This document shows positions 1 through 33,446 of a DNA stretch of 64,000 bases, piece after piece. Origin of the DNA: Cyanidioschyzon merolae (Eukaryota); the NCBI GenBank assembly GCA_000091205.1, contig AP006483.2. One strand, written 5' to 3'. The notes under the pieces were generated by a model. It had not been told where the DNA came from and made no database searches. It worked only from the letters and a program-made list of their open reading frames with translations. Each line of letters opens with the position of its first letter. The stretch's first letter is position 1. Made by a program: the position numbers and the translations under genes.

Positions 1-22
1 CCCCCCATTTCCCCCCATATCC
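1..22. repeat. Telomere-like motif: CCCCCCATT TCCCCCCAT ATCC (reverse complement AATGGGGGG-type)
   Basis: Read directly at window start. The motif matches the AATGGGGGG telomeric repeat I recall for Cyanidioschyzon-type red algae. Only about 2 units are present, followed by T-rich low-complexity DNA to about 1.1 kb. Confidence 0.4.
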
Positions 23-3000
23 TTCAACTCCTACAAGTCGCGATGCTTATTCTTGTCGGGAATTCTTTTAATGACCCATAATCTCGTTGGCGTTTCTTTT
101 TTTCATGGCTTTTTTTGTGGAATTTTTTTTACTAGGCGATTGCGGACTCTCGCTATCCAGTTATTTTGGAGCTGTGATCGATAGGCAACCGTGGTCACTT
201 GGAATCAACGCGAACTTTTGTTTGGATGCGACCCTAACTTTCGTAGCGATGCTGCAAACAAAACTCTAGCTTACTTGCACCTGTGCCCCTTACTATCAAC
301 CAAGTAATTATTTTTTGCAACTCCAGCATGTTTCAGTTCTTCACGATTACCACGCTCGAATTTGTTGGCTTACGTGTTTTTTTATCTCTTGGTTTTTTTT
401 CCTGGCCTCTCTTTGTCAACGACTGGTTATCTAGCCTTTCTTGTACTCCCGTTCGGGGATATGTCTTTGTGCTGATTTTCATCGAGGCGCTACGCATCCT
501 TACCCATGGGCTACGGCTCGTCACTAATTTTTTATCGATTAGGGTGCTGTGAAGCGATTGGTTTCGGTCTGTGTCTTTTTTCTTTTATTGTCATTGCCTG
601 GTGTGAGCCCTGTTTTTATTTCCGGGGCTGCAATGCCAAAGACAGCATTCGGCTTGGACGTTTTGGTTTATCTGTTGGCTTGCACCCAGCACGCTTTGGG
701 GCCCCGCCTGGAGAGCCCAGACTCCTCCGAGCACCCCCATGCTTTACGGGTTTGATGACTTTACCTTCCTATGACAATTCGTTATCTGGAACTGGCGATC
801 TCTTTGTTCGGTGCGTCCGTACACTTTTGTCGTTGCATGTTTTTGCGCCCAACATTTGGTGTTCGCAGCACTAAATATATGCATTTTTCTGTTGCAGATC
901 ATATCAAGCATGTCGTACGTTCCGCGGCGTATATTCAGTATAGAACGTCTTCTCATATTCATCATGGACTCCAACGCATTGCGCTCTCTTTAATGTTTCT
1001 GCGCAACAGTGTACGATTGCAGTGCTCTGCGGAACGATACTGCACTCGCGTGTACTACTTTGTTGTCCATTGGCTGCTATTGGAACTTTTACGTATGTCG
1101 CACTAGTGCAGGTATTGCATCGACTGCCATCGACTCACCGATGATCCATATTGCTTGTGTTCCGCTTTCCACATAATCTCCATCGTAGGCCTCTGGAATC
1201 TGCAAGAGGGACAAACTGTACCACCAGGTATCTTTTGCCTTTCGGGCTTCAGATGCCAATCTCTGGAATAGATATCGAATTCTTCGTGGGCTCCTACTCT
1301 ATTTGAGACTGTATATACTCAATAACATACTCTGTCACCCTTTTCATGGGCAAGATAACGCACACTACCATACCGCTTAGGAAAATGTGTGGCAGCAAAT
1401 ATGAGCGCCCAAATTCACAAATGAACATTCAGTACAGGCGTATACTTTCATTTGCTTGTCATGAAAGCCTTCATCACCATCGATGGATCTGCCTCCCTGG
1501 CCGCCGTTTCTCGAGAATCCGGAATCTTTGCTCTGATTCCGGTATCCTCTTCCAGAGATATCTCCATCTCTGCTGTCGAACTGGATCATCACCAGAACCT
1601 CCTTTACATCGCCAGACTGCAAGCTGCTATCCAAGTTTTTTCGTTTATGCTCGATGCCAGGCTGCTATCGCTGCACAAGATGCCTGATCATGCATTTTCA
1701 AGTGGCTACCGCTATCGATCCAACATCACCATTCCAACCATCATGAAGCAGACAGACAAGCTCTTTTGACCACTTTCAATATGCCAAGTCTATTGACTAT
1801 GACAAACTACTGCATTAGCGATCCATTCACCTCATCTGCAAGCACCTACTTCATGGCCGCCACGAATGAAGCGTAAATTTGCTGTTCCGCCCGTCCACGG
1901 CTGGTACTATCTTTCGGCTATCATCATGACACCCGCGGTATCCTTTCTGCCTAGGGTTGCATCTAAGTTCCGTCGCACCGGTGCTCGCAAGCGTGCCAGA
2001 GCCCAACGCACGCCATCCCTTGCGACGCATACTACCCGAAGAAATCAACTCTTGCACCGTCTACAACGAAGAGCCCCGATCACGCCGGCTATTCTTGCCT
2101 TCCGTCTACACTCAAAGCGATCCTGGTCGGCACTGCAGGGTCTCGCTAGTTCAGGTCAGCATCCAGGTTGGCGTCGCTTATTAAGATCATGTCTGCGAAA
2201 AGCACCTCAATCCTTTACACTATTAGTCGATAGCCCCCGCTAAGATATAGCTGCGATGTCCATCACATGACGAAGACTTCGGCAACTATGGAAATCGTGA
2301 AGCTTGAGATCTTTTTTATTCGTTACATCTTATTGTGCATCTCGGTTTTTTTCTTAACCGAAGGACAAGTGTCCATTCATCAGCAGTAGATTCAATCATA
2401 GGGTATCTCGCAACGAACTTGCACATAATCGATAGGTACGGTTACAGAAAGAAAGCTCTCAGGTTGCCTTCAATTCTAGTCGCCGTGCTGCGGTAACTTT
2501 CACTTTGGCTAGATTCGCCCCCTGGATCTCGCTGTGCGCTCTATCTTGCCTCTACGCTTTAGCACGCTTGCGGCATGTCCATGGTCTTACAGCGTACTTG
2601 CGCCCTCTGCTTGGAGTCATTTTCTCGACAACAAGCCCAAATCCGGGACTGCATCCCAACAGTGCGCTACAGTCGATTTTGTACACTTTTTGTCCAACAG
2701 ACAGCAGGTAAGAGTCTCAGAACTTCTGAGACGACCCTTCCGCATTTGGAGCAGGCAACATGCGCTTTCGATGCTAGAGCTGTACGTGCGCTGTGAGGCT
2801 GGTAGCTCTGCGACTTTCTTACTCAGCGACGCTGCTGCAGATGAAATGGATTCAGTGATATATACGCTTACCCTAGGAATACCGTATTCTGGTGAAATGT
2901 TCAGTTGCACGGATAGAATTGCACTTGCTCTGGAACTACTATTCGTGGGCAGAATCCATGCTAGTACACCAATCCTACAATGATTACATCCCTTTGCGTC

Positions 3001-3240
3001 GTCGCAGCAAAACTCACTAGTCGCTACCTGTGCACCGGGTTTCCAGGGCAACGAAGGCAAAGGTTTGCAACCCACCGACGTCGCCGTAAAAGCAATATTC
3101 ATAGGCACGCTCGTGCTCATAGGAAATCATTCCTCTACGTTCCGAGAGAGATTCCCAGTCCAGTCGTTCCATGTGTATCGCCTCTGAATCACGGCCCATG
3201 GGCAAGATTTCAGAGTGCTCTCCGCGCACATCTGTAGCCG

Positions 3241-3275
3241 CATTCATTCATTCGTTCGTTCGTTCATTCATTCGT
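3241..3275. repeat. (CATT/CGTT)n microsatellite
   Basis: cattcattcattcgttcgttcgttcattcattcg. Confidence 0.9.
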
Positions 3276-3374
3276 ATTCACCGATCTTGTGTACATGTCT
3301 GCAACATTGTCATAACAGAGGATCAGCATAGACATGATATAGACCTTAAACGACGTAAACGTCAACGCGCATAC

Positions 3375-6125
3375 TCAAGCAGAAACTGAAGCTGAACCCG
3401 AAACCGATGTTGACGCACTCGCAGACACCGCCGCAGAAGCTGTCGCAGACACCGTCGCAGAGGGTGTCGCTGTCGCAGCCACGGGACTCGGAGTCGGTGT
3501 TGAACTAATCACGACACACTGGTTGTTGATGCACTCCTCGTCAGCGCGGCAGCAACGCATCTTGTTCACAAGGTTATCCGAAGGGATCAGGTACGTCCCG
3601 CATTGCTTCGTAGGGTCCTTGCACACACAAAATGACGGCAGCAGCACCTGTTGTTGTTGCTGCTGTTGTTGCAATTGTTGCTGCTGTTGCAGGTTATTGT
3701 TGTTGCTGAACGGGATGTACGTGCAGTTCTGCGTCTCGGCGTCGCAGCACTCGGGGCCGCATACAGTATAGCTCGAGTTCGATACGTTGCTAGTGGTGCC
3801 GCTCAGCGAGTTCGACACAAACCCGTAGGTCTGGCACACGTACTCGGTAACCGGCTGGAAGCACTCGTTGCCGAGCCCCAGGCAGCAACCCGCCTCCAGA
3901 CACTGCTGCGGCGCGTAGCTCGTGCGCTGCGTCCCGTGCTGCTCTCCGTACAGGAGCGTGTTCAGCAGACGCACAAACTGGTTGTTGTTGATGTTATTGT
4001 TCAGCTGCTGGTTCTGATTCACCGCGTTCGTGCACGGCTGGCGCTCAAACTCACCCACCGCGCACGTCTTCTCGGGCTGGAAGCAGTACGGGTTCGACGC
4101 AAAGTCGCTCTGCTGCTTGCCGTTCTGCACCCACTGGTTCTGCGCCTGCGAGTCGTAGCAGCAGCCCTGGGCATAGCACGTAAACTGGTTGATACCCGCG
4201 TTACCACACGGCTGGCGCTGCGCTCCCGGTGATGGGCAGACGGGCACCGGTGCCTGCACCTCCTGCAGCGCTACAGAAGCCTGCGGTGCATGGTTGATGT
4301 CGTAGTAGCACCAGGGCGCGAGGATACCGTTCGCTGTGGGCTGCCAGCAGCATCCCGGTATCGCAGTGCACTCGTCAGGGTAGATATAGCTCCAGCCGCA
4401 GGGGACGCGCTGCGTCACTGGAACAGCGCTGCACGCCGCTGAGACGCTCTTCAGGGTGCACGCGTTGGTCTGGGCGTTGAAGCAGCACCCGACTTGCTCG
4501 CATGCGTCCTGGTTGATGTACTGTCCCGGGGAACCGCAGATCTCATTGGTGCACACCGGAGTAGATGTAGGCGTTGGCGTCAGTGTGAACGTCGAGGTCA
4601 CGGTTGCTGTTATCGTAGATGTAGCCGTAGATGAAGCGGTTACCGAGGATGTTGGGGTCGATGTCGGAGTTGGCGTTGATGTTGGCGTAGGCGTAGGGGT
4701 AGGCGTAAAGAACGTTTCACTCAGTGCGAAAACATCATTGAGATAGCCAATGCTAGTGTTTGAGTAACCCAATCCGCCAAATAGGATCGGATCTGTTCCA
4801 CTGGTGTTCCAGAAAGCTGGTCCTGCTCGACCGCCAGGTACAACACTCGAGCCGGACTCGTTCAAAACTCCATATACTGCTAAAGAATCAACCGCTGAGC
4901 TTCCATTGATCCACGCCCACTGACCAAGTGTGATATCAAATACCCAAAGATCGTTCAAAAAGCCAAAGGATGCGCTCGTATTGGCGACTCCCTCACCGCC
5001 AAACAGCTGTAGATTACCCAAAGGATCCACAAAACTCACGCCTGAGTCTCTTGCACTAGGGTAACTGGTTGGGGAGAAAGCACCGAGAGTTCCATATGAT
5101 CCTGGATTATTAATAGTGGTATTCCCTGTGATAAAAATCCATACGGATTGGCTTATATTGTAGACCCAGAGATCATTCAAGTCCCCTTGCCCTAGTGCTG
5201 TGCTGTTTCCGTAGCCATAGCCACCGAACAACCAGAGATTTCCTTCAAAATCTGTCCACGTATGCGAGAAGCCGCGCGCACCTGGAGCATTTGAGTTGCT
5301 CGCCACGCCAGGTGCACTATAGTTACCAGGCTGGTTAGCAAGTTGTGATCCGCCTCTGTATGCCCATTCGAATGTACCAGGGTTGAATGACCAGAGATCT
5401 GACAAATAATCCAGCTCATTATTTCTCTCACCACCAAACAACCAAAAAAGACCATCCGCGCCCCGCCAGAATGCCGCGCTATCTCGGCCTCCGGGATTGT
5501 AAGAGGGAAGGGAGACGTCTTTCGGCCCGTAAACGGGAGGAGCATCTGTTGTTTCGCTCCCGCTCACCCAGGTCCAGAATCCGCTCTCAGTATCGTATAG
5601 CCACATGTCGTTAAGCGCACCGAAGCTCGAATTCACATCGTAACCGTCGCCACCAAACAACCAGAAATGCTGCTCGTCCGCCTGCCAATATGCGCTTGCA
5701 TAACGACTGCCAGGTATATTGGCTGGGCTGCTTATGCCGAGTGTGCCATATACTCCTGGTTGGCCGGCTTCTGCGGAACCTCCTATCCACGTCCACTCGA
5801 GCGAGGTCAGGTTGAAGCTCCAAAAATCGTTGAGGTAGCTCTCTGATGTATTTCCAATCCCAAAGCCACCGAACATATACACCAAACTCGAACTTCCGAC
5901 CCAGGCTGCTGAAATTTGACGTCCACCAGGAACACTCTCTGGAGACGTCTGGTCCAACGATCCATACTTGCCAGAGTTATCTGTACCCGTCTCTCCACCT
6001 ATCCAGGTCCAGCTAACCGTACTCACAGGCGACAACGCAGCTACAAGCGACACGGAAAACGTCGCCGCCAACAATAGACAAACAGCTACTCCCAGGGCAC
6101 GTACCAGAGAGCGAGCACGAAACAT
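3375..6125 (-). CDS. Secreted Kelch-repeat (galactose-oxidase-type beta-propeller) / Thr-Pro linker / 4x Cys-rich trefoil-like module / polyQ mosaic protein
   Basis: 916-aa ORF. N-terminal hydrophobic signal (MFRARSLVRALGVAVCLLLAATFSVSLVAALS). At least 6 Kelch-like blades with recurring W(L/M)FGG...GxRxxxAxW motifs. A TPTPTPTPTSTPTPTSTPT linker. Four modules with C..C..GCC[FWY]..C spacing (e.g. PCGWSYIYPDECTAIPGCCWQP). A QQQQQLQQQQQQQQ / NNNINNN tract. A Ser/Ala/Thr-rich C-terminus. Confidence 0.7.
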   Translation of the reverse strand: MFRARSLVRALGVAVCLLLAATFSVSLVAALSPVSTVSWTWIGGETGTDNSGKYGSLDQTSPESVPGGRQISAAWVGSSSLVYMFGGFGIGNTSESYLNDFWSFNLTSLEWTWIGGSAEAGQPGVYGTLGISSPANIPGSRYASAYWQADEQHFWLFGGDGYDVNSSFGALNDMWLYDTESGFWTWVSGSETTDAPPVYGPKDVSLPSYNPGGRDSAAFWRGADGLFWLFGGERNNELDYLSDLWSFNPGTFEWAYRGGSQLANQPGNYSAPGVASNSNAPGARGFSHTWTDFEGNLWLFGGYGYGNSTALGQGDLNDLWVYNISQSVWIFITGNTTINNPGSYGTLGAFSPTSYPSARDSGVSFVDPLGNLQLFGGEGVANTSASFGFLNDLWVFDITLGQWAWINGSSAVDSLAVYGVLNESGSSVVPGGRAGPAFWNTSGTDPILFGGLGYSNTSIGYLNDVFALSETFFTPTPTPTPTSTPTPTSTPTSSVTASSTATSTITATVTSTFTLTPTPTSTPVCTNEICGSPGQYINQDACEQVGCCFNAQTNACTLKSVSAACSAVPVTQRVPCGWSYIYPDECTAIPGCCWQPTANGILAPWCYYDINHAPQASVALQEVQAPVPVCPSPGAQRQPCGNAGINQFTCYAQGCCYDSQAQNQWVQNGKQQSDFASNPYCFQPEKTCAVGEFERQPCTNAVNQNQQLNNNINNNQFVRLLNTLLYGEQHGTQRTSYAPQQCLEAGCCLGLGNECFQPVTEYVCQTYGFVSNSLSGTTSNVSNSSYTVCGPECCDAETQNCTYIPFSNNNNLQQQQQLQQQQQQQQVLLPSFCVCKDPTKQCGTYLIPSDNLVNKMRCCRADEECINNQCVVISSTPTPSPVAATATPSATVSATASAAVSASASTSVSGSASVSA
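3648..3715. repeat. (TGY)n / CAG-type coding microsatellite inside Kelch gene (polyQ)
   Basis: tgttgttgttgctgctgttgttgcaattgttgctgctgttgcagg. Confidence 0.9.
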
Positions 6126-8914
6126 CTCGTTCGACGCTCTCTCAGTCCAATAAATACGGATATTTGTTCTTTCTCGAGTGAATATATCTTCACTATTGTT
6201 TTTTCGTTATGGCCAACACGAACGTAACCGCCGTGTGTTGTGAAAGCCAGAACAACAACGCACAACGTGATAGCGCCAAAAACGCGAAACGCGCGCGCGC
6301 ACTGCAGAGGAATTTGAATTGGGGTCATCATGATGCGATGAAGAATTCACGTTGATGTCGAGACTGGAGCGTAACGGACGTAGGGAATTCGGGGTACATA
6401 GTCCGAAATATCCAAGTTGAAAGAGGTACTAAAAACTATATATGGGCTAGTGGGATTTCATTCGAATGAGTAACTCCCGAGTACTGCTCCTTCCAGGTGC
6501 GAGTCAGCAGGGTTCTGCAGGTCACGGCTCTGGGTAAGAAGGATAGCGAATAACGAACTATCGGTTGCTGAGGTTCGTCTTCCACCTGAAAGGCAGATGA
6601 ATCTCTAAGGCGTATTTTCTATTTTATATTTTAGGGAGACGATTGTAGTGGAAGTATTCGGTGTTAGATTTATTGTGTTGCAGTCCTGTTCTCGTGGTGA
6701 CAGCCAAGCTGAGTAGTTGGGAGGTTTATGTAGGTCTGTACCATTGGTATTTGTCTTAGATAAGAAACATTAACTAGTGAGCTCCAATATTTCTATTGCG
6801 AGGAATACTAAACAATATTGCTCGCGAGGAATGTGGTCTCTGATTCGGGACCCTCCCTCGTTGCTCGAAAACACCCGCACATGTCCGTACCCATGCTTCA
6901 GCTATCAACCCACGAAGTGGGAACTCGTAAGTCACTTTTTCATCTAACCTTATTCGGCGTAAGCTTTGAGCATGTATTTCAACTGCCGCTGGCAAGCCTT
7001 GCATCACCATGCATTTGCAGGGCTGGCGCAGACCAATGATCCGCGTAGAATACTTTCACAATCGGAGACTTCCTCACGTTTCACCCAATTTACCGAAAAA
7101 TCCTCCGTGGAGTGTATTTTTACATCCCCGCCCCGGAAAGAGAGCTCTGTTGCTGCAGATGACACTATCTACATGAATGTCGGCCTCGATCCGTAACCCG
7201 CCAAGGGCGTCATGACACCAATGAATATCCATGCTCGCATTTCGGAGTGGGAACTTGTTGAACTTTGAAAATGCTCTAGTCTGAATTGGTCTTTTGGCAG
7301 CAGCCAAGATAATGGTCCAACGTCTGGGGGCTCGAGAACTGAAATCAGATCATGTTTGCCTGCTTGATCAGAGTCGCTGAATGTGTAGCTGCTTTTTCAA
7401 GACGGTGCCTAGCATCATGAACAATTGTATTCCCAGAGGCGTCGTTCCGTAACTGTTTAGTTGAGTAGCGGGCAATTTATAAGTACCATATACACCTTTG
7501 GCGATCCGACAGTCTTCCCAGCAGGATCCACGAAAATCTCGGCATAGTTATCGAGCAAACAGCGAGAGTTGGCGACCAAGTCTACGGACAAATTCTGTCT
7601 CGAACTTCAACCGTGCTCAGGCAATGATGCCAGCACCTGTTTCGCAATGTGCTTTTCTTACAGCACATTGCCCAGTACATATCCTTTTTTCTTGAACGCT
7701 CTACCCAGACATATTGCCCTGGATTCCTTGTTCTCTTTTGTCCAATGATTCTCGGGAGGCACGATCACCGGCTCTGTCAGTGAGCGGAGCCATGATCCAT
7801 TCCTTGGGCCTCTCGCATTGTTCAGTGTTCGATGGCTCGCTGCTACGGCTTCATCGGAGTTTATTTGGATTTTCTCGCATGCGAAGGCGCGTTCTGGAGT
7901 TTAGAGCTTCTTCATGCTACGATCTAGCTTCTGAAATATTTTTCGCAATCTAACCTGCGGGCTGCTTGCGTGGTTCAGCTGCTTACCCTACAGTATCCAA
8001 AGAAAACAGAAAACAGAAGCTAAATACATGCTCGCAACTAGATATTCGCAATTTATCCCCCAGAGTAGAAGTTGAAAGCCGAAATCAACCTTCAATTTGA
8101 CGATTCGCCTTCTTGGCAGAATCTACCTCGAAAGGGTAAAATCTGTGGAGATGGTACATCCCGTTTCCTCGCCGTAGTGGCGGTGTTCAAACACGACCCA
8201 CGTTGCTCCTCTTCGGCACCGCTTTCCCAGTACACACGGGGAAGGCTGTGTTGGTCAGCACCGTGCCGTAGTAGTCTAGCTTCTTCTAGCCCGCCACTCG
8301 ATGGCTGTCGCTCGGCTGTCGCAGACTAATGACATGTCCTAGCGCACTGCCCGGAAGGTACGACCCACTAATATAACATGAGAGACCGCTCTGCAACTCG
8401 TAGAATCCATTCAAATTCGGAAGAGGGCACTCGTAGCATCCCCTGTACCCAGGCAGCTCCTAGGGACCAGGGAAATCCTGATTCCATGCATCTGTCTCAC
8501 GGCCGGAGCAAAAGAATCGGATGCATTTCATATTCACTACCAGGTCCCACGATGAGATTCAACAATAAATGTCCCTAATTCTGAACGCTTTCGCGTACAC
8601 TCCAGAGCGGATACGCTATATGCAGTGGCCGCACATATGCTCTACACTCACGGACGACCGATTTTAGCATACTCTGGCGCATTCGATGCGAAGTAGGTCA
8701 TAGCTATAGCTACATTAATCACTATTGCAGTACGCTTCATGACTCGCGGAGCGATTTTGGTTCACCACGTCAGGAGGAGTGCCCTCTCACCCGATCACTA
8801 TCCGAGTATGACTGTGGCATGCCGTCTCATCCGTACGCTGTTGCTCCCACATCCGCCCTTGACGCAGCGCTCTGCGCTCCGAAGCCCGCATCTCATTTTC
8901 ATCACTAACAAACC

Positions 8915-9973
8915 TTAGACAGGGGCCAAGTAATTCGACTTGAGGCTTCGCCGCCGCAACGCCTGGTCGATCAGATCAAGACTCAGTTCGTAAAGCTGAT
9001 CTGCCTTGTCGATTTCGTATGTTGGTTCAATAACCTGCGGTTTCGTCTTCTCTCGACCTTCCGTATACTTGCCACGCCACTGATAATACGAGCCCGAGTC
9101 CGAGAACTGTCCCTGGGTCGCCACTTCGGCTACGCGGCGGCCGGCCTCATCATTCGGAACGTATTGCCGAGTGATGTACTTCTGAAGAATCGGGAAGAAT
9201 ACGTAGCGGAACCAGCCACGCTTTTCGCGGAAGAGGTTGCTGTCGGCGACACATCCCGGAAAAATCGCCACAGAGGTCACCCCGTCGCGGCCGTATCGAT
9301 CACTAAGCGCCTTCATTGTCAACACGTTCGCGGCTTTGGCGTCTTTGTAGGCTTTTGTGGGCTCAAACGGGCCACTGTCCACCATGCCCGTCGTCTGCGG
9401 ACCAAGCCCCGCGGCTAGACCAGACAAATCACCGAGACGAGCCTGCGGGGGGATCTTTCCCGGCAACGAATTCGGCGAATGGGTCTGAGTCGTCAGAAAC
9501 ACAATGCGCCCGCGCGATATTTTCAGCTTCGGCAACAGCTCCCGACATAGAAGCAAATGGCTCAGATGGCATACCTGCATGGTTTTCTCGATGCCGTCCA
9601 CCGTGAAACGCGGTTTCTTGTCCCGCGGATGCCATATTGCGGCATTGCAGATCAGGGCATCCAGGTGATCGACGCGCGCCACACTCGATAGCGCTCTCAC
9701 AAACTTCAACACAGAGGCGAAATCAGCCAGATCACAATGCAGCACTGTATAGGCGTCCTTTGGAAGGTTTACGCTGTTTGCTGCGCGCTCCGCCCGGTCG
9801 ACGTCACGACATGCCATGACGATGTGCCAGTTGCCCTTGTTGATCAGAGCGCGAGCTGCATACAGACCAACTCCAGAGCACGCGCCTGTGATCACGGCGA
9901 TCTGCGACTGTTTCGGGCCCATACGAAGATGCAGCATACGATGCCGGCGCGCTACAGGCGAACGCTGCACCAC
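8915..9973 (-). CDS. Light-dependent protochlorophyllide oxidoreductase-like short-chain dehydrogenase (POR family)
   Basis: 352 aa. VITGACSGVGLYAARAL (Rossmann TGxxxGxG). NKGNWHIVMACRDVDRAERAANSV...KDAYTVLHCDLADFASV closely parallels the POR consensus GKWHVIMACRD...KDSYTVMHLDLASLDSV. YKDAKAANVLTMKAL (catalytic YxxxK). The C-terminal FPGCVADSNLFREKRGWFRYVFFPILQKYITRQYVPNDEAGRRVAEV block also matches the POR consensus. Confidence 0.8.
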   Translation of the reverse strand: MVQRSPVARRHRMLHLRMGPKQSQIAVITGACSGVGLYAARALINKGNWHIVMACRDVDRAERAANSVNLPKDAYTVLHCDLADFASVLKFVRALSSVARVDHLDALICNAAIWHPRDKKPRFTVDGIEKTMQVCHLSHLLLCRELLPKLKISRGRIVFLTTQTHSPNSLPGKIPPQARLGDLSGLAAGLGPQTTGMVDSGPFEPTKAYKDAKAANVLTMKALSDRYGRDGVTSVAIFPGCVADSNLFREKRGWFRYVFFPILQKYITRQYVPNDEAGRRVAEVATQGQFSDSGSYYQWRGKYTEGREKTKPQVIEPTYEIDKADQLYELSLDLIDQALRRRSLKSNYLAPV

Positions 9974-11299
9974 CTAGGGCAGCGGATGCTGACAGTGGTG
10001 ACGGTATCGAGCTGCGAAGCACCCGTCACGTGCGGTACGCCGCGGGAACCGTGCACGAGTTGCAGCGCGCGCGCGCGAAAAATGTGTCTTTCCTAGTACA
10101 GCGGAACAGAAACGAAAAGAGCTTGCATTTTCTTGGGATAGATTCTCTCCGATGCGGAAGCTGTCGATCGTTTCAACAACAAGAAACGTTCGCTTAAGTA
10201 TGCGTATCCAGTCAAAAACCTCTTTTGCGTAGCGGCACGAGTGATCGCCCGTCAATTGCCCAGAGTCCGAGCTAAATCTCCCGTAGATTGTCTAGCGTTC
10301 AGCGCAACTAGCACAAGCGCTCAATGCCTTTTCAGAAACTAGGCAGAACTCCGACCATTTCGAACAACAACTTCACCAGTACGTAGTGCCAAGGGTTCCG
10401 CAGTGCGGCGCTCAGAGATCACAACGATCGTAAATGGACTTCACCACAGCTCTCCGACGAATACCGTAGAGGAGGCATAAGGAAATTTCCTACGGTGCTC
10501 TGTATTTTTTGCAAACGTCTGCACGTCAGTTGGAGACTTCATGTCTAGGGCAGGTCATTCGGCATTATTGTACACCGCGGGCGGCAGCGTTTTTTTCAAA
10601 GGCATTCGTTGTTCGCTTTGTCGCTTCCGGGCTCGATGTTCGGGTTAGGCTCTTGAAACTAATCTTATAGAGTAGATCAGAATACAGTATGTGCTTTTGG
10701 CGGATGCCTCGGTCAAACGGAATGCTAAGTATAGACACTCTATGTATGCGATGCCTCTACCAAGATCACCGGATCCGGGAGAGTAGCAAGCACCATAACT
10801 TGGACAATGACGATAGCATGCAAATGGCTTGAACTGCCATCAGTACCAGCCTATGACGCAGGATCGAAGCACAATTCAGGTCAGTTCCTCATTGCAGCGT
10901 CCGTGCGGCATGCATAACAAGCATCACGAACAAACGTATATACGAGTTCAGGAACACTAACGTACCTTGTGTGGTTACGATCAATAAAACGAACGAAATC
11001 CCTAACGAGAAGATTGATGCATACCTCATCCAGACAACCGTAAGCCGCAGAGAACGCTACGCTTTTGATAGAAGCGTCGAGGGGTTTCGTGCCAGGCCCA
11101 ACAGCTCCATGTATGTCAGGGCGGTGCTGCGATGGGCAGTTGCGTCGGCACCAGCGACATAACCTCTAGCAAGAGACTGCTCTACGTGAGTTTCCGATCT
11201 ACGACACTTGACTTCCGCTGCAGCGCGATGCGAACACGCATGTGCCAAGGCGGTGCGTGGGACACGTGTCTTTCATCAATCGGGGAGGCGTCTCGCGCG

Positions 11300-14000
11300 G
11301 TGCACGCATCGCGCCGGTGAGCGCACCTGGGAGATCGGGCAGGCATGAGACACGACGTGTATGTCGCCGTTGATGGGAAACGTGATCTCGTTCAGAAGCG
11401 TGTTGTTCAGCTGTAAAAAGCTTTATTTGCGTTGGGGTCATAGCCAAGTGTAGTTTTCAGTCCATTTGTGTTTCAAACTTCAAACAAGTCTAGTCAAGTG
11501 TTTTTTCCCAGCATATACCACAAGCGTCCAAAGAGCGTTCTTTTTCAAAAAAAATAGGAAAGCTATGAAAAAGCAAGTCCACGATCCTGGAGGTCCAGTG
11601 TCGCCGGCTGCCAGAAAAAACAAAAACAATACCGAGCCCAGAAGATAAAGTAGAGAAAAAGAAGCAAATGGGGGAGGCCCCACGTCGAAGGCGGCAAGAA
11701 AGACAACTGGACAACGAGATGGTGGTTAAAGGCTGTCTTCTTAAAAATATCAAAGATTCCTAGAGGGAAAAGTTGGTAGACGCTATCAAAACACGTGTCG
11801 ACTCGTACTCCAAGAGCATTTTCAAGGCGTCGTCAGGACCGATGCATTTGGCGGGGGAGATGTATCGCGACGTGACGCACATCGAAACGGTCGAGATTCC
11901 AGACGAGTTTTTCGACGTGACCTTTATTCGTCACCTGATGCTTGGTACAGAGGAAGCGCGGATGGAAAATGAGCGGGTGCACGCCCTCCACGAAAAATAT
12001 CCCTCTTACAGCTTCGCGGGTACTCGAAACAAGGGGGACTGGAGTATTTACGACTATGGGGCGATGAAGTACCTCACGAATCTGAAGCAACATTTGACAA
12101 CGAACCTCGAATGTTTCATGATACGCGCCGTGGTTGCACTCTACCCGGACATCTCTCGCAAAGGAAAATCGGCGATTATCAATGGCATCAAGAACGATCG
12201 CAAGCATGAAGATGAGATCGAATTCGTCGGAGAGAAGGCGACAAACGAGAGCACAAAAGAAGCTTCTGTGATCCGTAAGGCTAGAGAAGAGCACCGAGCA
12301 CTCTTGGGTTGGCGAATCCAACAGAAAAGATATCAGAGTTGAAAAAAGATAAGGAAAGATACTATCGCCTCGTCCTGCGCTATTTCGTGTTTTTGGATCG
12401 TGAACTCAAACGCAAGGCGGAGATGAAGCTGAGTGGGGAAAAAATGAAGAGTGCGAGAGACGGACGGCTCTCCTAATGGGGAAGCGCTTCAAACAGTGGT
12501 TCCGTTGTGGAACATCAAGTCACATTTTGTGACTATCGATTCCAGAATCCTTCACGGCATCATGAAGTAGAACCGTCCGGATTTCAGTGTCAGCAGAGAC
12601 GATTTCTCCGGTGAAAATCGGGAAACGTACTGGAAGAATATCTTCGTTTCCGAACGTCTCAAAGTGAGCAAACAAAAGGTATTTATTGGGATGATCGAAA
12701 CCTATGGAGTAGCCATGTGTGTACACGATCGGCGCTTGAAGACAGATCGGACAGTTTCGTCCTCGGCTTCGCCCGCGACGAAGGATGAAGATGAGAAGAA
12801 GGCGGATCTTGCGACGCAGAAAGTGCACGAGAACAACATTGTCGTTGGTGCGGACCCCGGAAACACAAATATCATAAATATCGCAGCACCCAAGGGTGCG
12901 GAAGATCGCAATGACGGCAACTTTCGTCGGAAACACATGCGCCTTTTGAGGTTCTCGAGAGCGAGACACTATCTAGAATCCGGTATAATGAAGGCAAGGA
13001 AGAGGATTGACACGTGGAATGCAGGAGTGAAGGATCAGTTGGAAGCTTTGAACAAGGTGACGAGCTGAGGAGCGGACTTTGAAGTTTTTTGAAATTCATG
13101 GAAGCTCACGTTGCTCATTGGGAGACACTGTGGAAAAAGTATACCAAGCCCCGATGGGCCCGTCTGCGCACGAGTCTATAATGCGTGAAGCAGCGTGCAT
13201 TTGACAACTTTTCCAATTATTTGAACGCCCTAAAAGAGGATGAGGGTCAGAAGCTCGTTGTAGCGTACGGAGCAGGGCGCTGGATGACCCAAAAAGCGAC
13301 TGCGCCAGCTCCGTCAGCATGAAAGAACAAGGTGTGCGCAAGGCGTTTTGTTCCGAAACCGATAGATGAGTTTCGAACACCGTATACACACCATGAACTA
13401 GGCTGTACACTTCAAAGGGTCGTGATGGAAAAGTGCCTGCGGAGCCCTGAGGGTACAAAAAGTACGGAGCGTTGACGGAACAGCAAATGGAAAGCGGGCG
13501 AAAGTTCGAGGAATGCTTGCACTAGTGAGTACCGTAAATAGCAAGGAACGTGTGGAGTTTGTGAACCGAGACTTTAACTCTGCCATCAATATCAGACGGT
13601 GTGCAGTGATGTGGAAGAAACTTCCAAAGTTGACAAGAGAGAATTTTGTTGGGCAAACTCTCAAACTCGGACTATATGAGAAAAGAATGGAACCAGTAGT
13701 AGGAGGCCGGCCGAGAGCCTGGGAGGCTTCTGCACGTCAGTTGGGAACGTCTTGTCCAGAACGGATTCCTCGCCACTACTGTACACCGCGGGCGTCGTTC
13801 GACTTTTGGAAAGTGTTCGGTGTCAGGGGTGCCCACTCTAGACAACAACGATCGCGTGAACAGTTCATGTCCGTTGTGCAAGCATGGAGTCGCTTCAAGA
13901 GCTGGGCGCTGGGCCCGACTGGCCTGAAAACAACGCACGCTTGGGGGCCTATCTCGAACGCTGGTTTACCTTTGGCAGGTTTCGCAGACATTACGAAACC
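11300..14000 (+). mobile_element. TnpB/Fanzor-like element, copy 1 (degenerate); boundaries approximate
   Basis: Nucleotide homology to the 51.8-54.4 kb copy begins upstream of the ORF (about 11.3-11.5 kb) and fades past the C-terminal coding region (about 13.8-14.0 kb). Flanks differ between copies. Confidence 0.6.
11773..13830 (+). pseudogene. TnpB/Fanzor-like RuvC nuclease, interrupted (ORF pieces 11773-12342, about 12350-12640 in another frame, 12664-13068, 13513-13830)
   Basis: RuvC-I-like [17 protein letters not shown] (about 12848-12895). RuvC-III-like [15 protein letters not shown] (about 13555-13600). 60-70% aa identity to copy 2 across the N-terminal (IPDEFFD.TFIRHL.LGT), middle and C-terminal segments. 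Frame breaks fall at different places than in copy 2. Confidence 0.65.
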
Positions 14001-14625
14001 CCCCGAGAGTATCAGCGAAAACATGACGGCCGCTATGTGCATCTATTCGCTTCTTTTCATGCGGTTCGCGTGGCGAGTACAGCCGCGGAACTATCTACTC
14101 TTCGCCGTTCACTTCAGCAACGAGCTGATTCAGGCTTACCACTTGCAACGTATTTTGGGAGGATACGACTTTTACGCCGGAAAGTACGCCACTGCAGAAC
14201 GGGCCAAGTCTGAGGCTGTTCCGTCACCGTCGTCGTAGAACTCCCTGCAGATCCCCCGGAAGCATTCCGTTGGTTACCGTCATAAGCGGACGTGTTGTTG
14301 CCATATGGGAGCGAGACGCGGTGTCGTAAGCCTTGACTTGAATCCGAAACTTCTTCGACTCTTGATAGCGCACGAAGGTATGGAGCACTGCTGAGTCGAG
14401 GCCGAGCACCGATGCGAAACCAGCTTTGCGTTCGATAACGCAGGGTCCGCGCATTGCGCTTCTATCCGAATAGGATCATTTCTTAAATTTTCCGGATACT
14501 TCTGCAGATGATGCAAAGCACCTGACAGGGACGCTCTCTTGCACGGCTAACGTACAATATCAGGATCGCAAAACGTTAGCAGCGTCATGCAGCATTCAGC
14601 CTTGCCCCGCGATCATTCAGCAGTC

Positions 14626-19849: not shown

Positions 19850-20870
19850 CGCTATCCAGGGACACGGCATCGATGCGTGCTGCGCATTGATGTCCAATAC
19901 ATACATGAATATACATATTCCTCCCATGTAGTTCGGAGGCTAGACGGCTGTCGCTATCCAGGGATACGGCATCGATGCGTGCTGCGCATTGATGTCCAAT
20001 ACATACATGAATATACATATTCCTCCCATGTATTTCGGAGGCTAGACGGCTGTCGCTATCCAGGGATACGGCATCGATGCGTGCTGCGCATTGATGTCCA
20101 ATACATACATGAATATACATATTCCTCCCATGTATTTCGGAGGCTAGACGGCTGTCGCTATCCAGGGATACGGCATCGATGGGTGCTGCGCATTGATGTC
20201 CAATACATACATGCATATACATATTCCTCCCATGTATTTCGGAGGCTAGACGGCTGTCGCTATCCAGGGACACGGCATCGATGCGTGCTGCGCATTGATG
20301 TCCAATACATACATGAATATACATATTCCTCCCATGTAGTTCGGAGGCTAGACGGCTGTCGCTATCCAGGGATACGGCATCGATGCGTGCTGCGCATTGA
20401 TGTCCAATACATACATGAATATACATATTCCTCCCATGTATTTCGGAGGCTAGACGGCTGTCGCAATCCAGGGATACGGCATCGATGCGTGCTGCGCATT
20501 GATGTCCAATACATACATGAATATACATATTCCTCCCATGTAGTTCGGAGGCTAGACGGCTGTCGCTATCCAGGGATACGGCATCGATGCGTGCTGCGCA
20601 TTGATGTCCAATACATACATGAATATACATATTCCTCCCATGTATTTCGGAGGCTAGACGGCTGTCGCTATCCAGGGATACGGCATCGATGGGTGCTGCG
20701 CATTGATGTCCAATACATACATGAATATACATATTCCTCCCATGTAGTTCGGAGGCTAGACGGCTGTCGCTATCCAGGGATACGGCATCGATGCGTGCTG
20801 CGCATTGATGTCCAATACATACATGAATATACATATTCCTCCCATGTATTTCGGAGGCTAAACGGCCTGT
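19850..20870. repeat. 102-bp minisatellite, about 10 tandem units with two alternating variants
   Basis: Unit cgctatccaggga[c/t]acggcatcgatg[c/g]gtgctgcgcattgatgtccaatacatacatgaatatacatattcctcccatgta[g/t]ttcggaggctagacggctgt. Period 102 counted from 19850, 19952, 20054 and onwards. It lies immediately 5' of the cysE-like start codon (19760). Confidence 0.9.
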
Positions 20871-26136: not shown

Positions 26137-29079
26137 GTGTCGCAGAGCGCTGCAGGTCGCATACACGTGGGTCTCGTCAATAGCTCCGGGCTCGACGCTG
26201 CCGCAACATCTGCTTTTGCTCAGAGTGCCTGTCGGGTATACCTGCAACGCTCAACGTCTGTCTCCATGGATGCGGCTCTAGGCGCACTGCCACCCGGTCG
26301 CACGGGTCGCGTGCTGCTCTTGGACCCCGCCGCAACCGACACTTTCTCACTCTACGCCGAAACGATACCAGCCTGGCCCGCGGCATGGCACGTTTCGTAC
26401 TGTGCAGTGTTGGGAAAACGCCCCAGCAGCTGGAGCGTCCCCACAGATTACCACGCTAATCGCAACGGTTTGCAGATTGCAGCACTTCTGCATGCGAGCA
26501 ACGCCCGTGCAGTGACCTGGCTGCTCGAGTGGCTGGAAGATATTGGTGCGAAGGCAGCAGCACCACCGCTGCTGAGTCACAAACCCGCTGCACACCATCA
26601 AAGAGAAGCGGCATATGGGCAGATGCCAGCGGCAGCGCAAACTGCGCAGCCACAACATCGAGTCGTGTTCACTCCATGGATCTCGGAGAGCGCATTGCGT
26701 CGTCTCGCCAAAGCTGGATGGTTGAAAAACTGCTCCATTGGACTGCTGGAACCGCGATTCCATCGAGTGAGCCCAACATTGCTGACCCTAGGCTGGGTAT
26801 CGCTAACGTCACTATCGCACGCGTTTACCTACCAGTGCGATTATGCACAGGCGCTTGTGCGCGCACTTGGCTCTCTCGGGTATGCGTGGGAAGAGATACG
26901 AGCCCTGGGATCATTCTCTGAGAAGGTCGCCGAACAACTAGCCAGTGAATATGTCGATCAGCACCACACAGAGCGGCCACTTGAAGCGCGTAGCGCTCCG
27001 GAGACGTGTACTGAATCGGAAGCGGCAACAGCAACAGCAACAGCGGGTACAGATGCTGCGACAATCACTTGCACTGCCCACGTTGCCGATACCTCTCCCA
27101 CTGACAGTACGCCTGATTCAATGCGAGATGTTTCGCGTGTCTCGGCCACGGCTTGGCAACATCCTCGCGTAACGCGCTCAACACTTCACTCTTACACAGC
27201 GGCATCAAATGAGGTTGCACCTGATCACCCGTACCGTTCAGTGCGTTCATCACTGAGACATGACATCGGAGACTTGCTGACGCCCCGGGATGGGGTCCTG
27301 GAGCCGTGGCAACTGCTCGGTCACGGGTCGCTAGCAGACACCACCGGGCACCACAGTGCCCATGGACAAGATGCAGTCGACGCCAGCACGAAGCGCACGG
27401 CGGCTTGTTTCCGCCTCCCGGACCCGGCGCTACGCCACAACGGTACTGCCACTGCATGCGAACAGCAGCCACGAGGCCGCCTCGTTCTCCTCGATCGATG
27501 GTTAGATCCTATTACCCCGCTGCTCACGCCGATCACCGTGGAAGGCCTGGCGTACGAAATCTACAGGGAGCCGTTTTGGAAGCGCTGGCAATCGACAGAG
27601 CTCCAGTCCGGCACTGCGTTTCAACAGCAGCTCCAGGAACATGCGAAACGCATTCGTAGTGACCTGCATGCGGCTGCTCTAGCCGAAGCGAGCACTCCTG
27701 CTGCAACGGAGACCACTTCGTTTCGTCAGCGAGTGCAAACGATCTGTCGAGCGCCGTTTTTCGAGGCTACCGCTAAAATTGGCGAATGGGCTCGTCAGCT
27801 GAAGCGTTTTTCAGAGACGCGTCCCGATCCCAAGGAAGCCTCTATGGACGAAATGACCGCCTATGTTCGAGCGTTGCGCCACAACCAAGCAGAGCAGGCC
27901 GTGGTGTCTGCGCTCTTGCACATCGTCGAGCGTTTGAGTGCCGAAACCTTCGATCAGGCCTATTTTCGGGAGCTGCTCTCCCTAGAGCGCGATCTCCTGA
28001 CTGGCGAAGCGGAACGCCGCAGCGCTTCAGAGTCCGTTGCTGCACGCCTGGAGCGCCTACTGGCGGCGGTAGCTGCAGCTCCAGCTGACAGCTGGCTCGC
28101 TGACACTGCAGTCTTCTGGCGGCTCGTCCTGCTGCACGGTCTCTGCACCGGTTCTGATGAACTGCTTGATCGCTATCCGAGTCTGCTGCATACTGCTGTA
28201 TGTTGCTATGGACTCCAGCAATTGCGTTTGGACTGGCAGGCGCTCTGCGAATCTGACCTTTTAGCGCCCCTGACGCGTCGCCTCCAAGGTTTGCGGCACG
28301 GGGCTGGTTTTCTAGCCGCCAGCAACTTTGACTGGCCGCTCCTTCGAGAGGTGCTGGAGCTCACGGCAGTCGAACCGAGCGTGATGGACGCATACGCGGG
28401 GTATTTGCCGCTCAGTGCCGCCTTAGCTGTAGTCGCTTGCGATGGGAAGCGCTCGAGCCGCCATTCTGCAATGTCGCCGGCTCGAGAGCCGCGCAGCAAA
28501 CCTCCCGGCCAAAGTGCAGACGTCATGGAGCGGCATGACGAAGACAGCAATCCCCACGTTAAAAGCGTTGAGCACCAGCTGAGCGACATGAACGCTACTT
28601 CCCGGATGGATGCGAGTCTGGGGCGATCTTCCCGTTCAGAGAATGAGGCCTCCATGCGTCACGAGCTGCAGACCCTAGAGGCGGATCGCTCTCTGCTCAT
28701 TCTGCGTCAGACGCCTAATATCTTGCGCCCGGTACGTCCACGCGGATGGCATCACAGCGCTTTCGCCGAGCTTTGCCAGAGGGCGCTTCGATGCCGGAGT
28801 CGCCCGCTGCAGAGGCGGATTCCGCAGACGCCAAGGCAGCGGGCATCACGCTCGCCTCCGAGCACACAAAGCCCAACACCAGCCACCACGGAATGCATTG
28901 TCGTACTGGGTGGTTGTTCGCCAGTCGAAGCGCATTGCATAGCATCAACAGTGGCGCGCTGCAGGGGTAACGCGTGTGCTGTCCAGGTTCTGAGTACTGG
29001 TCTGTTTTCGAGTCGTGAGTGGCTCATCGCGGCCATCCACGACCACGATCGTCCGTCTTGGATGCATCCAGAGCCCTGA
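26137..29079 (+). CDS. Sec1/Munc18-like (SM family) protein with long C-terminal extension (tentative)
   Basis: 980 aa. RVLLLDPAATDTFSLYAE near the N-terminus and LVLLDRWLDPITPLLTPITVEGLAYEIY resemble SM-family domain-1/2 motifs (KVLVLD..., LLILDRxxDxxxPLLHxxTYQAL). The rest is low-complexity and unrecognised. Confidence 0.4.
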   Translation: MSQSAAGRIHVGLVNSSGLDAAATSAFAQSACRVYLQRSTSVSMDAALGALPPGRTGRVLLLDPAATDTFSLYAETIPAWPAAWHVSYCAVLGKRPSSWSVPTDYHANRNGLQIAALLHASNARAVTWLLEWLEDIGAKAAAPPLLSHKPAAHHQREAAYGQMPAAAQTAQPQHRVVFTPWISESALRRLAKAGWLKNCSIGLLEPRFHRVSPTLLTLGWVSLTSLSHAFTYQCDYAQALVRALGSLGYAWEEIRALGSFSEKVAEQLASEYVDQHHTERPLEARSAPETCTESEAATATATAGTDAATITCTAHVADTSPTDSTPDSMRDVSRVSATAWQHPRVTRSTLHSYTAASNEVAPDHPYRSVRSSLRHDIGDLLTPRDGVLEPWQLLGHGSLADTTGHHSAHGQDAVDASTKRTAACFRLPDPALRHNGTATACEQQPRGRLVLLDRWLDPITPLLTPITVEGLAYEIYREPFWKRWQSTELQSGTAFQQQLQEHAKRIRSDLHAAALAEASTPAATETTSFRQRVQTICRAPFFEATAKIGEWARQLKRFSETRPDPKEASMDEMTAYVRALRHNQAEQAVVSALLHIVERLSAETFDQAYFRELLSLERDLLTGEAERRSASESVAARLERLLAAVAAAPADSWLADTAVFWRLVLLHGLCTGSDELLDRYPSLLHTAVCCYGLQQLRLDWQALCESDLLAPLTRRLQGLRHGAGFLAASNFDWPLLREVLELTAVEPSVMDAYAGYLPLSAALAVVACDGKRSSRHSAMSPAREPRSKPPGQSADVMERHDEDSNPHVKSVEHQLSDMNATSRMDASLGRSSRSENEASMRHELQTLEADRSLLILRQTPNILRPVRPRGWHHSAFAELCQRALRCRSRPLQRRIPQTPRQRASRSPPSTQSPTPATTECIVVLGGCSPVEAHCIASTVARCRGNACAVQVLSTGLFSSREWLIAAIHDHDRPSWMHPEP

Positions 29080-31449: not shown

Positions 31450-31760
31450 GATAGGCGAGAAAATGTATTTGCCCAGCGGGACGATGACGAGACGCTGGTG
31501 GCACAGAGGCCATGAGTTCGAAGAATCCTTGCTTGCACTGGTGCTTCATCCAGAGGCAATAAACCTATGGTTTTCGTGAATCGTGACTTCAGAGCTGCCC
31601 TCAAACTGAGACGGTGTGCGGTACAGAGTACGAGACCCGATGAGCTGACGCGATCCAACTTCCTGGGGCAGCCTCTCAGGCTCGGAGTCTACGTGGAAAA
31701 ACTCAAATCGATAGCAGGAGGCAGGTCAAACAAGGCTGGAAGGCGTCTGGACACAGACAC
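31450..31760 (+). pseudogene. Fragment of a third TnpB/Fanzor-like copy (C-terminal RuvC-III region only, degenerate)
   Basis: MVFVNRDFRAALKLRRCAV...SNFLGQPLRLGVYVEKLKSIAGGRS parallels copy1 [18 protein letters not shown]...[25 protein letters not shown]. The preceding frame gives ESLLALV, matching RGLLALVST in copy 2. The NAAxNI motif has decayed to RAALKL. Confidence 0.6.
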
Positions 31761-33372: not shown

Positions 33373-33446
33373 CAGTGGTGCGGCATCGACGTCGTCGGTC
33401 GCATTATGGTGCGGATGTCCCGAATATGATCTTGAGTACCGCATTC

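What the first reader, a model, noticed from the sequence alone, without database searches (positions are those of the whole stretch)
1..1100. Window starts with a CCCCCCATT-type motif: possible chromosome end with a T-rich subtelomeric block
Bases 1-22 read CCCCCCATTTCCCCCCATATCC, i.e. two units whose complement is AATGGGGGG. That is the telomeric repeat reported for Cyanidioschyzon-type red algae. The motif is followed by about 1 kb of T-rich, low-complexity DNA with no credible ORF. The window also fits such a host in its mid-50s %GC, almost complete lack of introns, and plastid-function genes. It may therefore begin at or very near a chromosome terminus. That would also fit the accumulation of three Fanzor-like copies, duplications and satellites seen here.
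Basis: partly seen in the sequence, partly recalled or inferred. Interest (0 to 1): 0.5.

Follow-up and report, generated by a model that had tools for sequence, protein, structure and literature searches.

The report
Known red-alga chromosome 1 left end

Summary
Observation confirmed and interpretation supported, but all of it is already published. Bases 1-22 read CCCCCCATT-T-CCCCCCATAT-CC: one exact and one variant C-strand unit of the AATGGGGGG telomere repeat, in the orientation expected at a left end. Eight window ORFs are 100% identical to C. merolae 10D proteins BAM78730-78742, all on a 422,616-bp contig, which is the length of chromosome 1. CYME_CMA010C lies at 26.3 kb. The published primer specific for end 1L matches window 401-422 exactly and points towards base 1. 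Primers for ends 4R (exact) and 2R/18L (one mismatch) also map inside the T-rich block, so the block belongs to a subtelomeric element shared between ends. The first two genes are the published terminal genes T (Kelch+trefoil) and P (POR-like). Four shotgun metagenome contigs are colinear with the window from base 1 and stop in more CCCCCCATT-like units. The short stub fits Nozaki et al. 2007, who could sequence at most 2.5 units per end. Bases 23-1100 are the most T-over-A skewed part of the window, carry oligo-T tracts and are non-coding, but are only weakly low-complexity. The idea that Fanzor-like copies pile up because this is a chromosome end is not supported.

The parts
1..22 (+). Stub of the telomere repeat, C-rich strand. 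It reads CCCCCCATT (canonical), T, CCCCCCATAT (10-nt variant), CC. Bases 1-9 may come from the telomere PCR primer. The variant unit is native.
   Evidence: The same variant unit is in metagenome contig L007, and canonical units lie upstream of the same junction in L004 and L005. Primer 3' end ATTCCCCCCATT.
23..1100 (.). Telomere-adjacent T-rich non-coding block with oligo-T tracts on the C-strand. It is part of a subtelomeric element shared with other chromosome ends.
   Evidence: Composition and T runs. Most extreme AT skew in the window. ORFs broken in relatives. No Pfam or Rfam match. End primers for 1L, 4R and 2R/18L map here.
215..234 (-). Exact match to the published 4R end primer c926t_Inv_F, pointing to the terminus. 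This shows the block is shared with end 4R.
401..422 (-). Exact match to the published chromosome 1L-specific end primer 839-3 (TCGTTGACAAAGAGAGGCCAGG), pointing to base 1.
679..699 (-). One-mismatch match to the published 2R/18L end primer 898-2, pointing to the terminus.
1101..3374 (.). Rest of the subtelomeric spacer between the T-rich block and the first gene. It looks mostly non-coding. ORF 2617-3120 (-) is the only candidate small gene.
   Evidence: Frame-breaking indels at 1397, 1526, 1697 and 2235 against L004. ORF 2617-3120 is intact in L004 and L005 with an excess of third-position changes. No Pfam hit.
3375..6125 (-). Terminal gene 'T': a secreted Kelch beta-propeller plus trefoil (P-type) domain protein, transcribed towards the telomere.
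   Evidence: Pfam Kelch families and Trefoil. Nozaki 2007 Fig. 3 legend lists the trefoil factor first among terminal genes. The Cyanidiococcus orthologue (68% identity) is also the last gene before a telomere. K+TFF genes are reported as subtelomeric in PMC13353863.
8915..9937 (-). Second gene 'P': an NADPH:protochlorophyllide oxidoreductase-like short-chain dehydrogenase.
   Evidence: Pfam adh_short. NCBIfam TIGR01289 LPOR, 308.8 bits over the full profile, just below the 331-bit cut-off. Nozaki 2007 Fig. 3 legend.

Best explanation
Window base 1 is the left terminus (1L) of chromosome 1 of Cyanidioschyzon merolae strain 10D, as deposited in the '100% complete' genome.

Bases 1-22 are the innermost one or two units of the C-strand of the (AATGGGGGG)n telomere. 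In the cell, telomerase maintains this array at about 400-700 bp. The record holds only a stub because long arrays could not be cloned or sequenced, and because the ends were obtained by PCR from a primer that anneals inside the repeat.

Bases 23 to about 1100 are the distal, T-rich, non-coding part of a subtelomeric element shared with several other chromosome ends. About 2.3 kb more spacer follows, then the published terminal genes T (Kelch+trefoil) and P (POR-like).

Shown here: the organism, the chromosome, the end, the junction, the non-coding nature of the block, and its sharing between ends. Inferred only: any function of the T-rich block. My best guess is a nucleosome-poor buffer or boundary, possibly with origin activity, between the telomere and the first gene. 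Neutral strand-biased drift is equally possible.
For: - Eight ORFs are 100% identical to C. merolae 10D proteins BAM78730, 78731, 78733, 78734 (CYME_CMA010C), 78735, 78736, 78737 and 78742. All lie on a 422,616-bp contig, which is the length of chromosome 1.
- The 1L-specific primer is exact at 401-422 (-), pointing outward.
- The window start differs from the reverse complement of the reported 1R end (AATGGGGGGAATGGGGGGAATGGG), and the low locus tag CMA010C sits at 26 kb. So this is 1L and not 1R.
- The gene order T then P matches the terminal genes of Nozaki 2007.
- The motif is at base 1 in the correct strand orientation.
- Metagenome contigs L004-L007 align colinearly from window base 1 (86.5-91.5% identity). 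They stop 7-117 nt upstream of the 24-nt query in CCCCCCATT-like units. L004 has three units.
- Nozaki 2007 states that at most 2.5 units could be sequenced, against 400-700 bp measured by Southern blot.
- In Cyanidiococcus the orthologous K+TFF gene is the last gene before an (AATGGGGGG)n contig end, and the telomere-adjacent 500 nt have the same T-rich composition.
Against: - I could not align the window directly to AP006483/NC_010127, because no tool holds that record. That base 1 equals record base 1 is therefore inferred, although from several independent lines.
- Only one canonical unit is present, and it coincides with the 3' end of the telomere PCR primer, so it is weak as native sequence.
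- The T and P proteins were not found by exact look-up, presumably because the gene models differ.
- Contigs L004-L007 are only 84-95% identical in the block, so they may be paralogous ends or other strains rather than 1L itself.
Confidence: 0.97

Rival explanations
1. The location is a real terminus, but bases 1-9 (CCCCCCATT) are not native. They would be the 3' end of the telomere-specific PCR primer (…ATTCCCCCCATT) used to obtain all chromosome ends, left in the deposited record. This refines the main explanation and does not contradict it.
For: The supplementary methods of Nozaki 2007 give the primer sequence and the asymmetric PCR strategy. The record starts exactly with the last nine primer bases. 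A primer that anneals anywhere in the array favours the shortest, most proximal product, which would explain why at most 2.5 units were ever recovered.
Against: Shotgun metagenome contig L004 shows canonical CCCCCCATT units natively at the same place. So even if these bases are primer-derived, they copy what is really there. Six ends came from shotgun reads, and I do not know which six.
Confidence: 0.35
2. An interstitial telomere-like sequence, or a chance C6ATT motif, that happens to lie at an arbitrary window boundary inside a chromosome.
For: One exact 9-mer in 64 kb is not rare by itself: 21 of 100 shuffles have at least one. Only about two degenerate units are present.
Against: - The probability of the motif at base 1 is about 5e-6.
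- The 1L end primer lies 400 nt inward and points outward.
- CMA010C is at 26 kb.
- The terminal genes T and P come next.
- All four related contigs terminate here in telomere units.
Confidence: 0.01
3. The CCCCCCAUU-bearing sequence is the template region of a telomerase RNA gene and not a telomere.
For: The telomerase RNA template must contain CCCCCCAUU. The surrounding DNA is non-coding.
Against: Nozaki 2007 found the template in only two transcripts, on chromosomes 13 and 16. Rfam gives no significant match in 1-3400; the only hit is a miRNA model at E=0.99, far below its threshold. The motif is at the very end of the sequence.
Confidence: 0.005
4. The T-rich block is a degraded coding sequence or a transposon remnant rather than a dedicated subtelomeric spacer.
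For: Three overlapping ORFs of 89-122 aa lie on the + strand. The window does contain transposon-like repeats elsewhere.
Against: No Pfam hit. No similarity to any other part of the window on either strand. Frame-breaking 1-nt indels and stops in relatives, and no third-position excess. Published end primers show it is the shared telomere-adjacent element.
Confidence: 0.03

Closest known systems
Left end of chromosome 1 in the C. merolae 10D complete genome (Nozaki et al. 2007, BMC Biol 5:28; AP006483)
   Same: Identical proteins, chromosome length, 1L primer site, telomere motif, a stub of no more than 2.5 units, and T and P as the terminal genes.
   Different: Nothing detectable. By all the evidence this is that very sequence. 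Direct base-by-base comparison with the record was not possible with the tools.
Homologous subtelomeric elements of C. merolae (eight types, up to 20 kb; Nozaki 2007 Fig. 3)
   Same: The block lies directly next to the telomere repeat and carries T and P genes. Primers for 4R (exact), 2R/18L (1 mismatch) and possibly 5L (3 mismatches) map in it in the same outward orientation.
   Different: I cannot say which named element type 1L carries, because the figure is not held. The extent of homology with the other ends was not measurable.
Cyanidiococcus yangmingshanensis chromosome ends (Cho et al. 2023 assembly GCA_026122185.1)
   Same: The same AATGGGGGG repeat. A K+TFF (68% identical) or K+Hog gene is the last gene and is transcribed towards the end. 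The 500 nt next to the telomere have T about 38%, A about 14%, and oligo-T runs on the C-strand.
   Different: No detectable nucleotide similarity to the window's block. The T-rich stretch is shorter, about 0.5 kb, and is followed by GC-rich DNA. One of the two contig ends (L009) lacks assembled telomere repeats.
Yeast subtelomeric core X / Y' elements
   Same: Repeated elements shared between chromosome ends, immediately internal to the telomere repeats, containing T-rich tracts. This rests on general knowledge and is only an analogy.
   Different: In C. merolae no single element is present at all ends, as Nozaki 2007 states. No ARS or protein-binding function was shown here.

Membership tests
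Cyanidioschyzon-type telomere, (AATGGGGGG)n chromosome terminus | Tandem AATGGGGGG / CCCCCCATT units | tested here: met
   One exact unit plus one 10-nt variant unit at 1-22. Related contigs carry 3-4 units (L004, L005) at the same junction. The stub is no longer than the 2.5-unit maximum reported for the reference.
Cyanidioschyzon-type telomere, (AATGGGGGG)n chromosome terminus | C-rich strand 5' at a left end, so that the G-rich strand runs 3' outward | tested here: met
   The + strand starts with CCCCCC at base 1. The right-end contig L008 ends in (AATGGGGGG)n on its + strand.
Cyanidioschyzon-type telomere, (AATGGGGGG)n chromosome terminus | Lies at the physical end of the chromosome | tested here: met
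   1L primer at 401-422 pointing outward. CMA010C at 26 kb. Four related contigs end here. Direct alignment to AP006483 was not possible.
Cyanidioschyzon-type telomere, (AATGGGGGG)n chromosome terminus | Array of 400-700 bp in vivo | not testable with these tools
   The length is known only from Southern blots in Nozaki 2007. The window holds 22 nt.
Cyanidioschyzon-type telomere, (AATGGGGGG)n chromosome terminus | The host is Cyanidioschyzon or Cyanidiococcus | tested here: met
   Eight proteins are 100% identical to C. merolae 10D. AATGGGGGG is listed for both genera in PMC13353863.
C. merolae homologous subtelomeric element (Nozaki 2007) | Adjacent to the telomere repeat and homologous to other chromosome ends | tested here: met
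   Primers published for ends 4R (0 mismatches), 2R/18L (1 mismatch) and 5L (3 mismatches) map at 215-234, 679-699 and 1112-1132, all on the minus strand. 1L is not among the nine ends listed as unique.
C. merolae homologous subtelomeric element (Nozaki 2007) | Characteristic gene content (T trefoil factor, P POR) | tested here: met
   Kelch+Trefoil protein at 3375-6125. LPOR-like protein at 8915-9937. Fig. 3 legend.
Interstitial telomeric sequence | Telomere-like units flanked on both sides by unique chromosomal DNA | tested here: not met
   Nothing lies upstream in the window. Related contigs show only telomere-like or poly-C sequence upstream of the junction.
Telomerase RNA gene | Transcript with the CCCCCCAUU template and telomerase RNA structure | tested here: not met
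   No Rfam match above noise in 1-3400. The candidates reported are on chromosomes 13 and 16 only.

The most novel reading that the evidence does not exclude
The telomere-adjacent block may be a conserved functional module of Cyanidioschyzon and Cyanidiococcus chromosome ends rather than neutral spacer. It is strand-asymmetric, with T about 37-38%, A about 14-18%, and oligo-T tracts always on the telomeric C-strand. Possible roles are a nucleosome-free boundary, a terminal replication origin, or the promoter of a TERRA-like transcript.

The composition is the same at all three ends I could examine in the two genera, although the sequences are unalignable. The one Cyanidium end has a C-rich satellite instead. 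All four ends are pyrimidine-rich on the C-strand.
Probability: 0.15. Interest if true: 0.35.

Novelty: already known. Interest (0 to 1): 0.08.

Why it matters
It matters mainly as an anchor for the rest of the scan. It fixes the window as C. merolae 10D chromosome 1, bases 1-64,000, so every other finding in this window can be read against a fully annotated reference genome. It also shows that the repeats elsewhere in the window are the known genome-wide interspersed element and not a subtelomeric accumulation. Biologically, the telomere motif, the short sequenced stub, the shared subtelomeric elements and the terminal Kelch+trefoil and POR-like genes were all described in 2007 and revisited in 2023-2026. 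The only open point is whether the compositionally conserved T-rich block next to the telomere has a function.

Tried and rejected
- Exact look-ups of window proteins in the gene-position index (T gene, Tsr1, aminoacylase and the C. merolae entry P0003) found nothing. The reference genome is not in that index, so the parent record could not be fetched.
- Exact cluster look-up of the T, P and Brf1 ORFs failed, probably because the gene models differ.
- The protein search with the T gene returned no C. merolae entry. The best hit is Cyanidiococcus at 68% identity. Low-complexity segments filled the candidate list.
- Self-BLAST of 1-3374 against the rest of the window, both strands, gave no hit. 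BLAST against the Cyanidiococcus subtelomere gave nothing significant.
- Rfam on 1-3400 gave only a chance-level miRNA match at E=0.99.
- Pfam on ten ORFs in 1-3374 gave nothing below E=0.06.
- A literature search for locus tags CMA001C-CMA006C found no paper.
- Pfam and PDB sequence searches of the TnpB/Fanzor-like ORFs gave no hit, so that label rests on motifs read by eye.
- I rejected the idea that the metagenome contig L005 shows unique DNA upstream. Its extra 96 nt are degenerate C6ATT units, a run of about 32 C and a short T-rich tail. I read this as an assembly or read artefact, not chromosomal continuation.

Full report
**What is in the sequence.** Bases 1-22 read CCCCCCATTTCCCCCCATATCC.
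- The first nine bases are the exact reverse complement of AATGGGGGG. The second unit is a 10-nt variant, CCCCCCATAT. Tandem Repeats Finder reports period 10, 2.2 copies.
- CCCCCCATT occurs nowhere else in the 64 kb on either strand. One hit somewhere in the window is not remarkable by itself: 0.22 are expected and 21 of 100 shuffles have at least one.
- The significance comes from three things. The motif sits at base 1 (iid probability about 5e-6). A second unit follows immediately (a two-unit pattern with up to 3 mismatches is expected 0.04 times). The C-rich strand is 5' at the left end, which is the correct orientation.

**The T-rich block.**
- Bases 23-1100 are T 36.7% and A 18.1%. There are eight T runs of at least 6 in the first 600 nt and no A runs, against 0.39 T runs per kb window-wide.
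- All 500-nt windows with |AT skew| >= 0.35 start between 51 and 451, so this is the most strand-skewed DNA in the window.
- It is not truly low-complexity. The 3-mer entropy ranks 18th lowest of 253 one-kb windows, compressibility is average, and there is no tandem repeat.

**Which genome this is.**
- The Tsr1 ORF (41551-44298, minus strand) is 915/915 identical to C. merolae 10D BAM78737.1.
- Seven more ORFs are exact matches to BAM78730, 78731, 78733, 78734 (locus tag CYME_CMA010C, window 26266-29079), 78735, 78736 and 78742.
- All of these lie on a contig of 422,616 bp, which is the published length of chromosome 1 (Nozaki et al. 2007, PMC1955436, Table 1).
- The accession numbers rise with window coordinate, and the tenth locus tag of the chromosome is at 26 kb. 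The window therefore covers the low-coordinate end.

**Direct proof that this is end 1L.**
- Additional file 2 of Nozaki 2007 lists the chromosome-specific primers used to amplify each terminus.
- The 1L primer 839-3 (TCGTTGACAAAGAGAGGCCAGG) matches window 401-422 exactly, on the minus strand, pointing towards base 1.
- The window start is not the reverse complement of the reported 1R end, AATGGGGGGAATGGGGGGAATGGG.
- The same paper says AATGGGGGG caps all 40 ends and that arrays are 400-700 bp by Southern blot, but that at most 2.5 units could be sequenced. That explains the short stub.
- The ends were amplified with a telomere primer ending in ATTCCCCCCATT. Bases 1-9 may therefore be primer-derived. 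This is my inference.
- The variant unit at 11-20 is native, because it recurs in an independent shotgun contig (L007).

**Independent evidence from other assemblies.** A 24-mer from bases 23-46 found four JGI metagenome contigs.
- All four are colinear with the window from its first bases, at 86.5-91.5% identity. L004 covers window 1-6174.
- All four stop 7-117 nt upstream of the 24-mer. What lies upstream is telomere-like:
  - L004 has TT-CCCCCCATT-CCCCCCATT-T-CCCCCCATT-T.
  - L007 has T-CCCCCCATAT.
  - L005 has three or four degenerate units, then a poly-C run that I read as an artefact.
- No contig continues into unique sequence.

**Subtelomere anatomy.**
- The first gene (3375-6125, minus strand) encodes a secreted Kelch-propeller plus trefoil-domain protein.
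- The second gene (8915-9937, minus strand) is POR-like: TIGR01289, 308.8 bits over the full profile, just under the cut-off.
- These are 'T' and 'P', the first two terminal genes named in the Fig. 3 legend of Nozaki 2007. A 2026 paper confirms that K+TFF and K+Hog genes are subtelomeric across Cyanidiophyceae (PMC13353863).
- Primers published for other ends also map in the T-rich block, all pointing outward: 4R exact at 215-234, 2R/18L with one mismatch at 679-699, and 5L with three mismatches at 1112-1132.
- So the block belongs to one of the published homologous subtelomeric elements shared between ends. This also means L004-L007 may be paralogous ends or other strains.

**Coding potential.**
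- Against L004, the region 1-3374 has indels of 1, 1, 1, 1, 4, 2 and 2 nt. The T gene has indels in multiples of three.
- Each of the three ORFs in 283-1106 is interrupted by a frameshift or a stop in at least one relative, and none shows a third-position excess. None has a Pfam hit.
- Rfam finds nothing above noise.
- The spacer has no similarity to the rest of the window.

**Comparison with sister genera.**
- In Cyanidiococcus, the 68%-identical K+TFF orthologue is the last gene on a 714,848-bp contig. That contig ends in about eight AATGGGGGG-type units.
- The 500 nt inside that telomere have T 38.6% and A 14.4%, with four oligo-T runs on the C-strand. They show no alignable similarity to the window.
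- A second Cyanidiococcus contig end, next to a K+Hog gene, has the same composition but no assembled telomere repeats.
- One Cyanidium end has (CCCCCCCATT)n followed by a C-rich satellite instead.
- With only three or four ends, this is a hint of a compositional rule and not a result.

**How it most likely works.**
- Shown: this is the chromosome 1L terminus. It consists of a telomere stub, a shared non-coding T-rich element, and then the T and P genes.
- From established knowledge: telomerase extends the G-strand with AATGGGGGG. TERT is CMD110C and the candidate RNA genes are on chromosomes 13 and 16.
- Inferred: the oligo-T block is a nucleosome-poor buffer or boundary, or possibly an origin. 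Neutral strand-biased drift at a region that is always replicated outward is an equally good alternative.

The observation and the main interpretation are correct. The added suggestion is not supported, namely that the chromosome end explains the Fanzor-like copies, duplications and satellites.
- The 3.2-kb interspersed element has 253 copies spread over all chromosomes, about one per 65 kb.
- The window has two diverged copies at 10.5-13.8 kb and 52.1-54.3 kb plus fragments. That is not a clear excess.

**Novelty.** Already known (Matsuzaki 2004, Nozaki 2007). Interest is low. The value of the result is that it anchors the window to a reference coordinate system.

Noticed in passing
window 10516-13831 and 52076-54263; fragments at 31489-31740 (+) and 39567-39809 (-): Two diverged copies (77.5% nt over 2.2 kb) of an interspersed element. 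Their broken ORFs carry GADPGNTNI and FVNRD(F/L)NxAINIR motifs, which look like TnpB/Fanzor RuvC-I and RuvC-III motifs by eye. There is no Pfam or PDB sequence hit. This is probably the 253-copy, 3.2-kb 'WSV486-like' element of Nozaki 2007.
   Followed up: partly
window 33443-34494 and 39273-40324: A 1,052-bp direct duplication at 98.7% identity, flanking the 134-bp satellite and the COQ10/START-domain gene.
   Followed up: no
window 19850-20866 and 36498-37060: A 102-bp x 10 tandem satellite (97% matches) lying inside long ORFs on both strands, and a 134-bp x 4.2 satellite.
   Followed up: no
window 2617-3120 (-): A 167-aa ORF in the subtelomeric spacer. It is intact, with no stops or indels, in both related contigs L004 and L005. 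Substitutions are enriched at third codon positions (26 against 15 and 12). It has no Pfam hit and may be a small unannotated gene.
   Followed up: partly
window 4750-6000 (Kelch half of the T gene) compared with L004: The Kelch-propeller half of the terminal gene is only 70-80% nt identical to the metagenome relative. The trefoil half and the flanking non-coding DNA are 82-97% identical. This suggests diversifying selection or recombination between paralogous ends.
   Followed up: no
L008 (Cyanidiococcus contig 4 right end), L009 (contig 3 right end), L010 (Cyanidium contig 6 left end): The telomere-adjacent 0.5 kb is T-rich with oligo-T on the C-strand at both Cyanidiococcus ends, without sequence similarity to the window. 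Cyanidium has a C-rich satellite instead. All four ends examined are pyrimidine-rich on the telomeric C-strand.
   Followed up: partly
window 13513-14238 (+), aa 133-216: A mitochondrial pyruvate carrier (MPC) domain (E=4.6e-28) is read through from the 3' end of the TnpB-like element's ORF. The real MPC gene probably starts at an internal Met near 13.87 kb.
   Followed up: no
L002 (JGI Ga0604745_000102, 91,886 bp): A metagenome contig from a related but distinct cyanidiophyte (Tsr1 67% identical). It keeps the window's gene order M20 - START - Tsr1 - acyltransferase - Brf1 - DnaJ.
   Followed up: no
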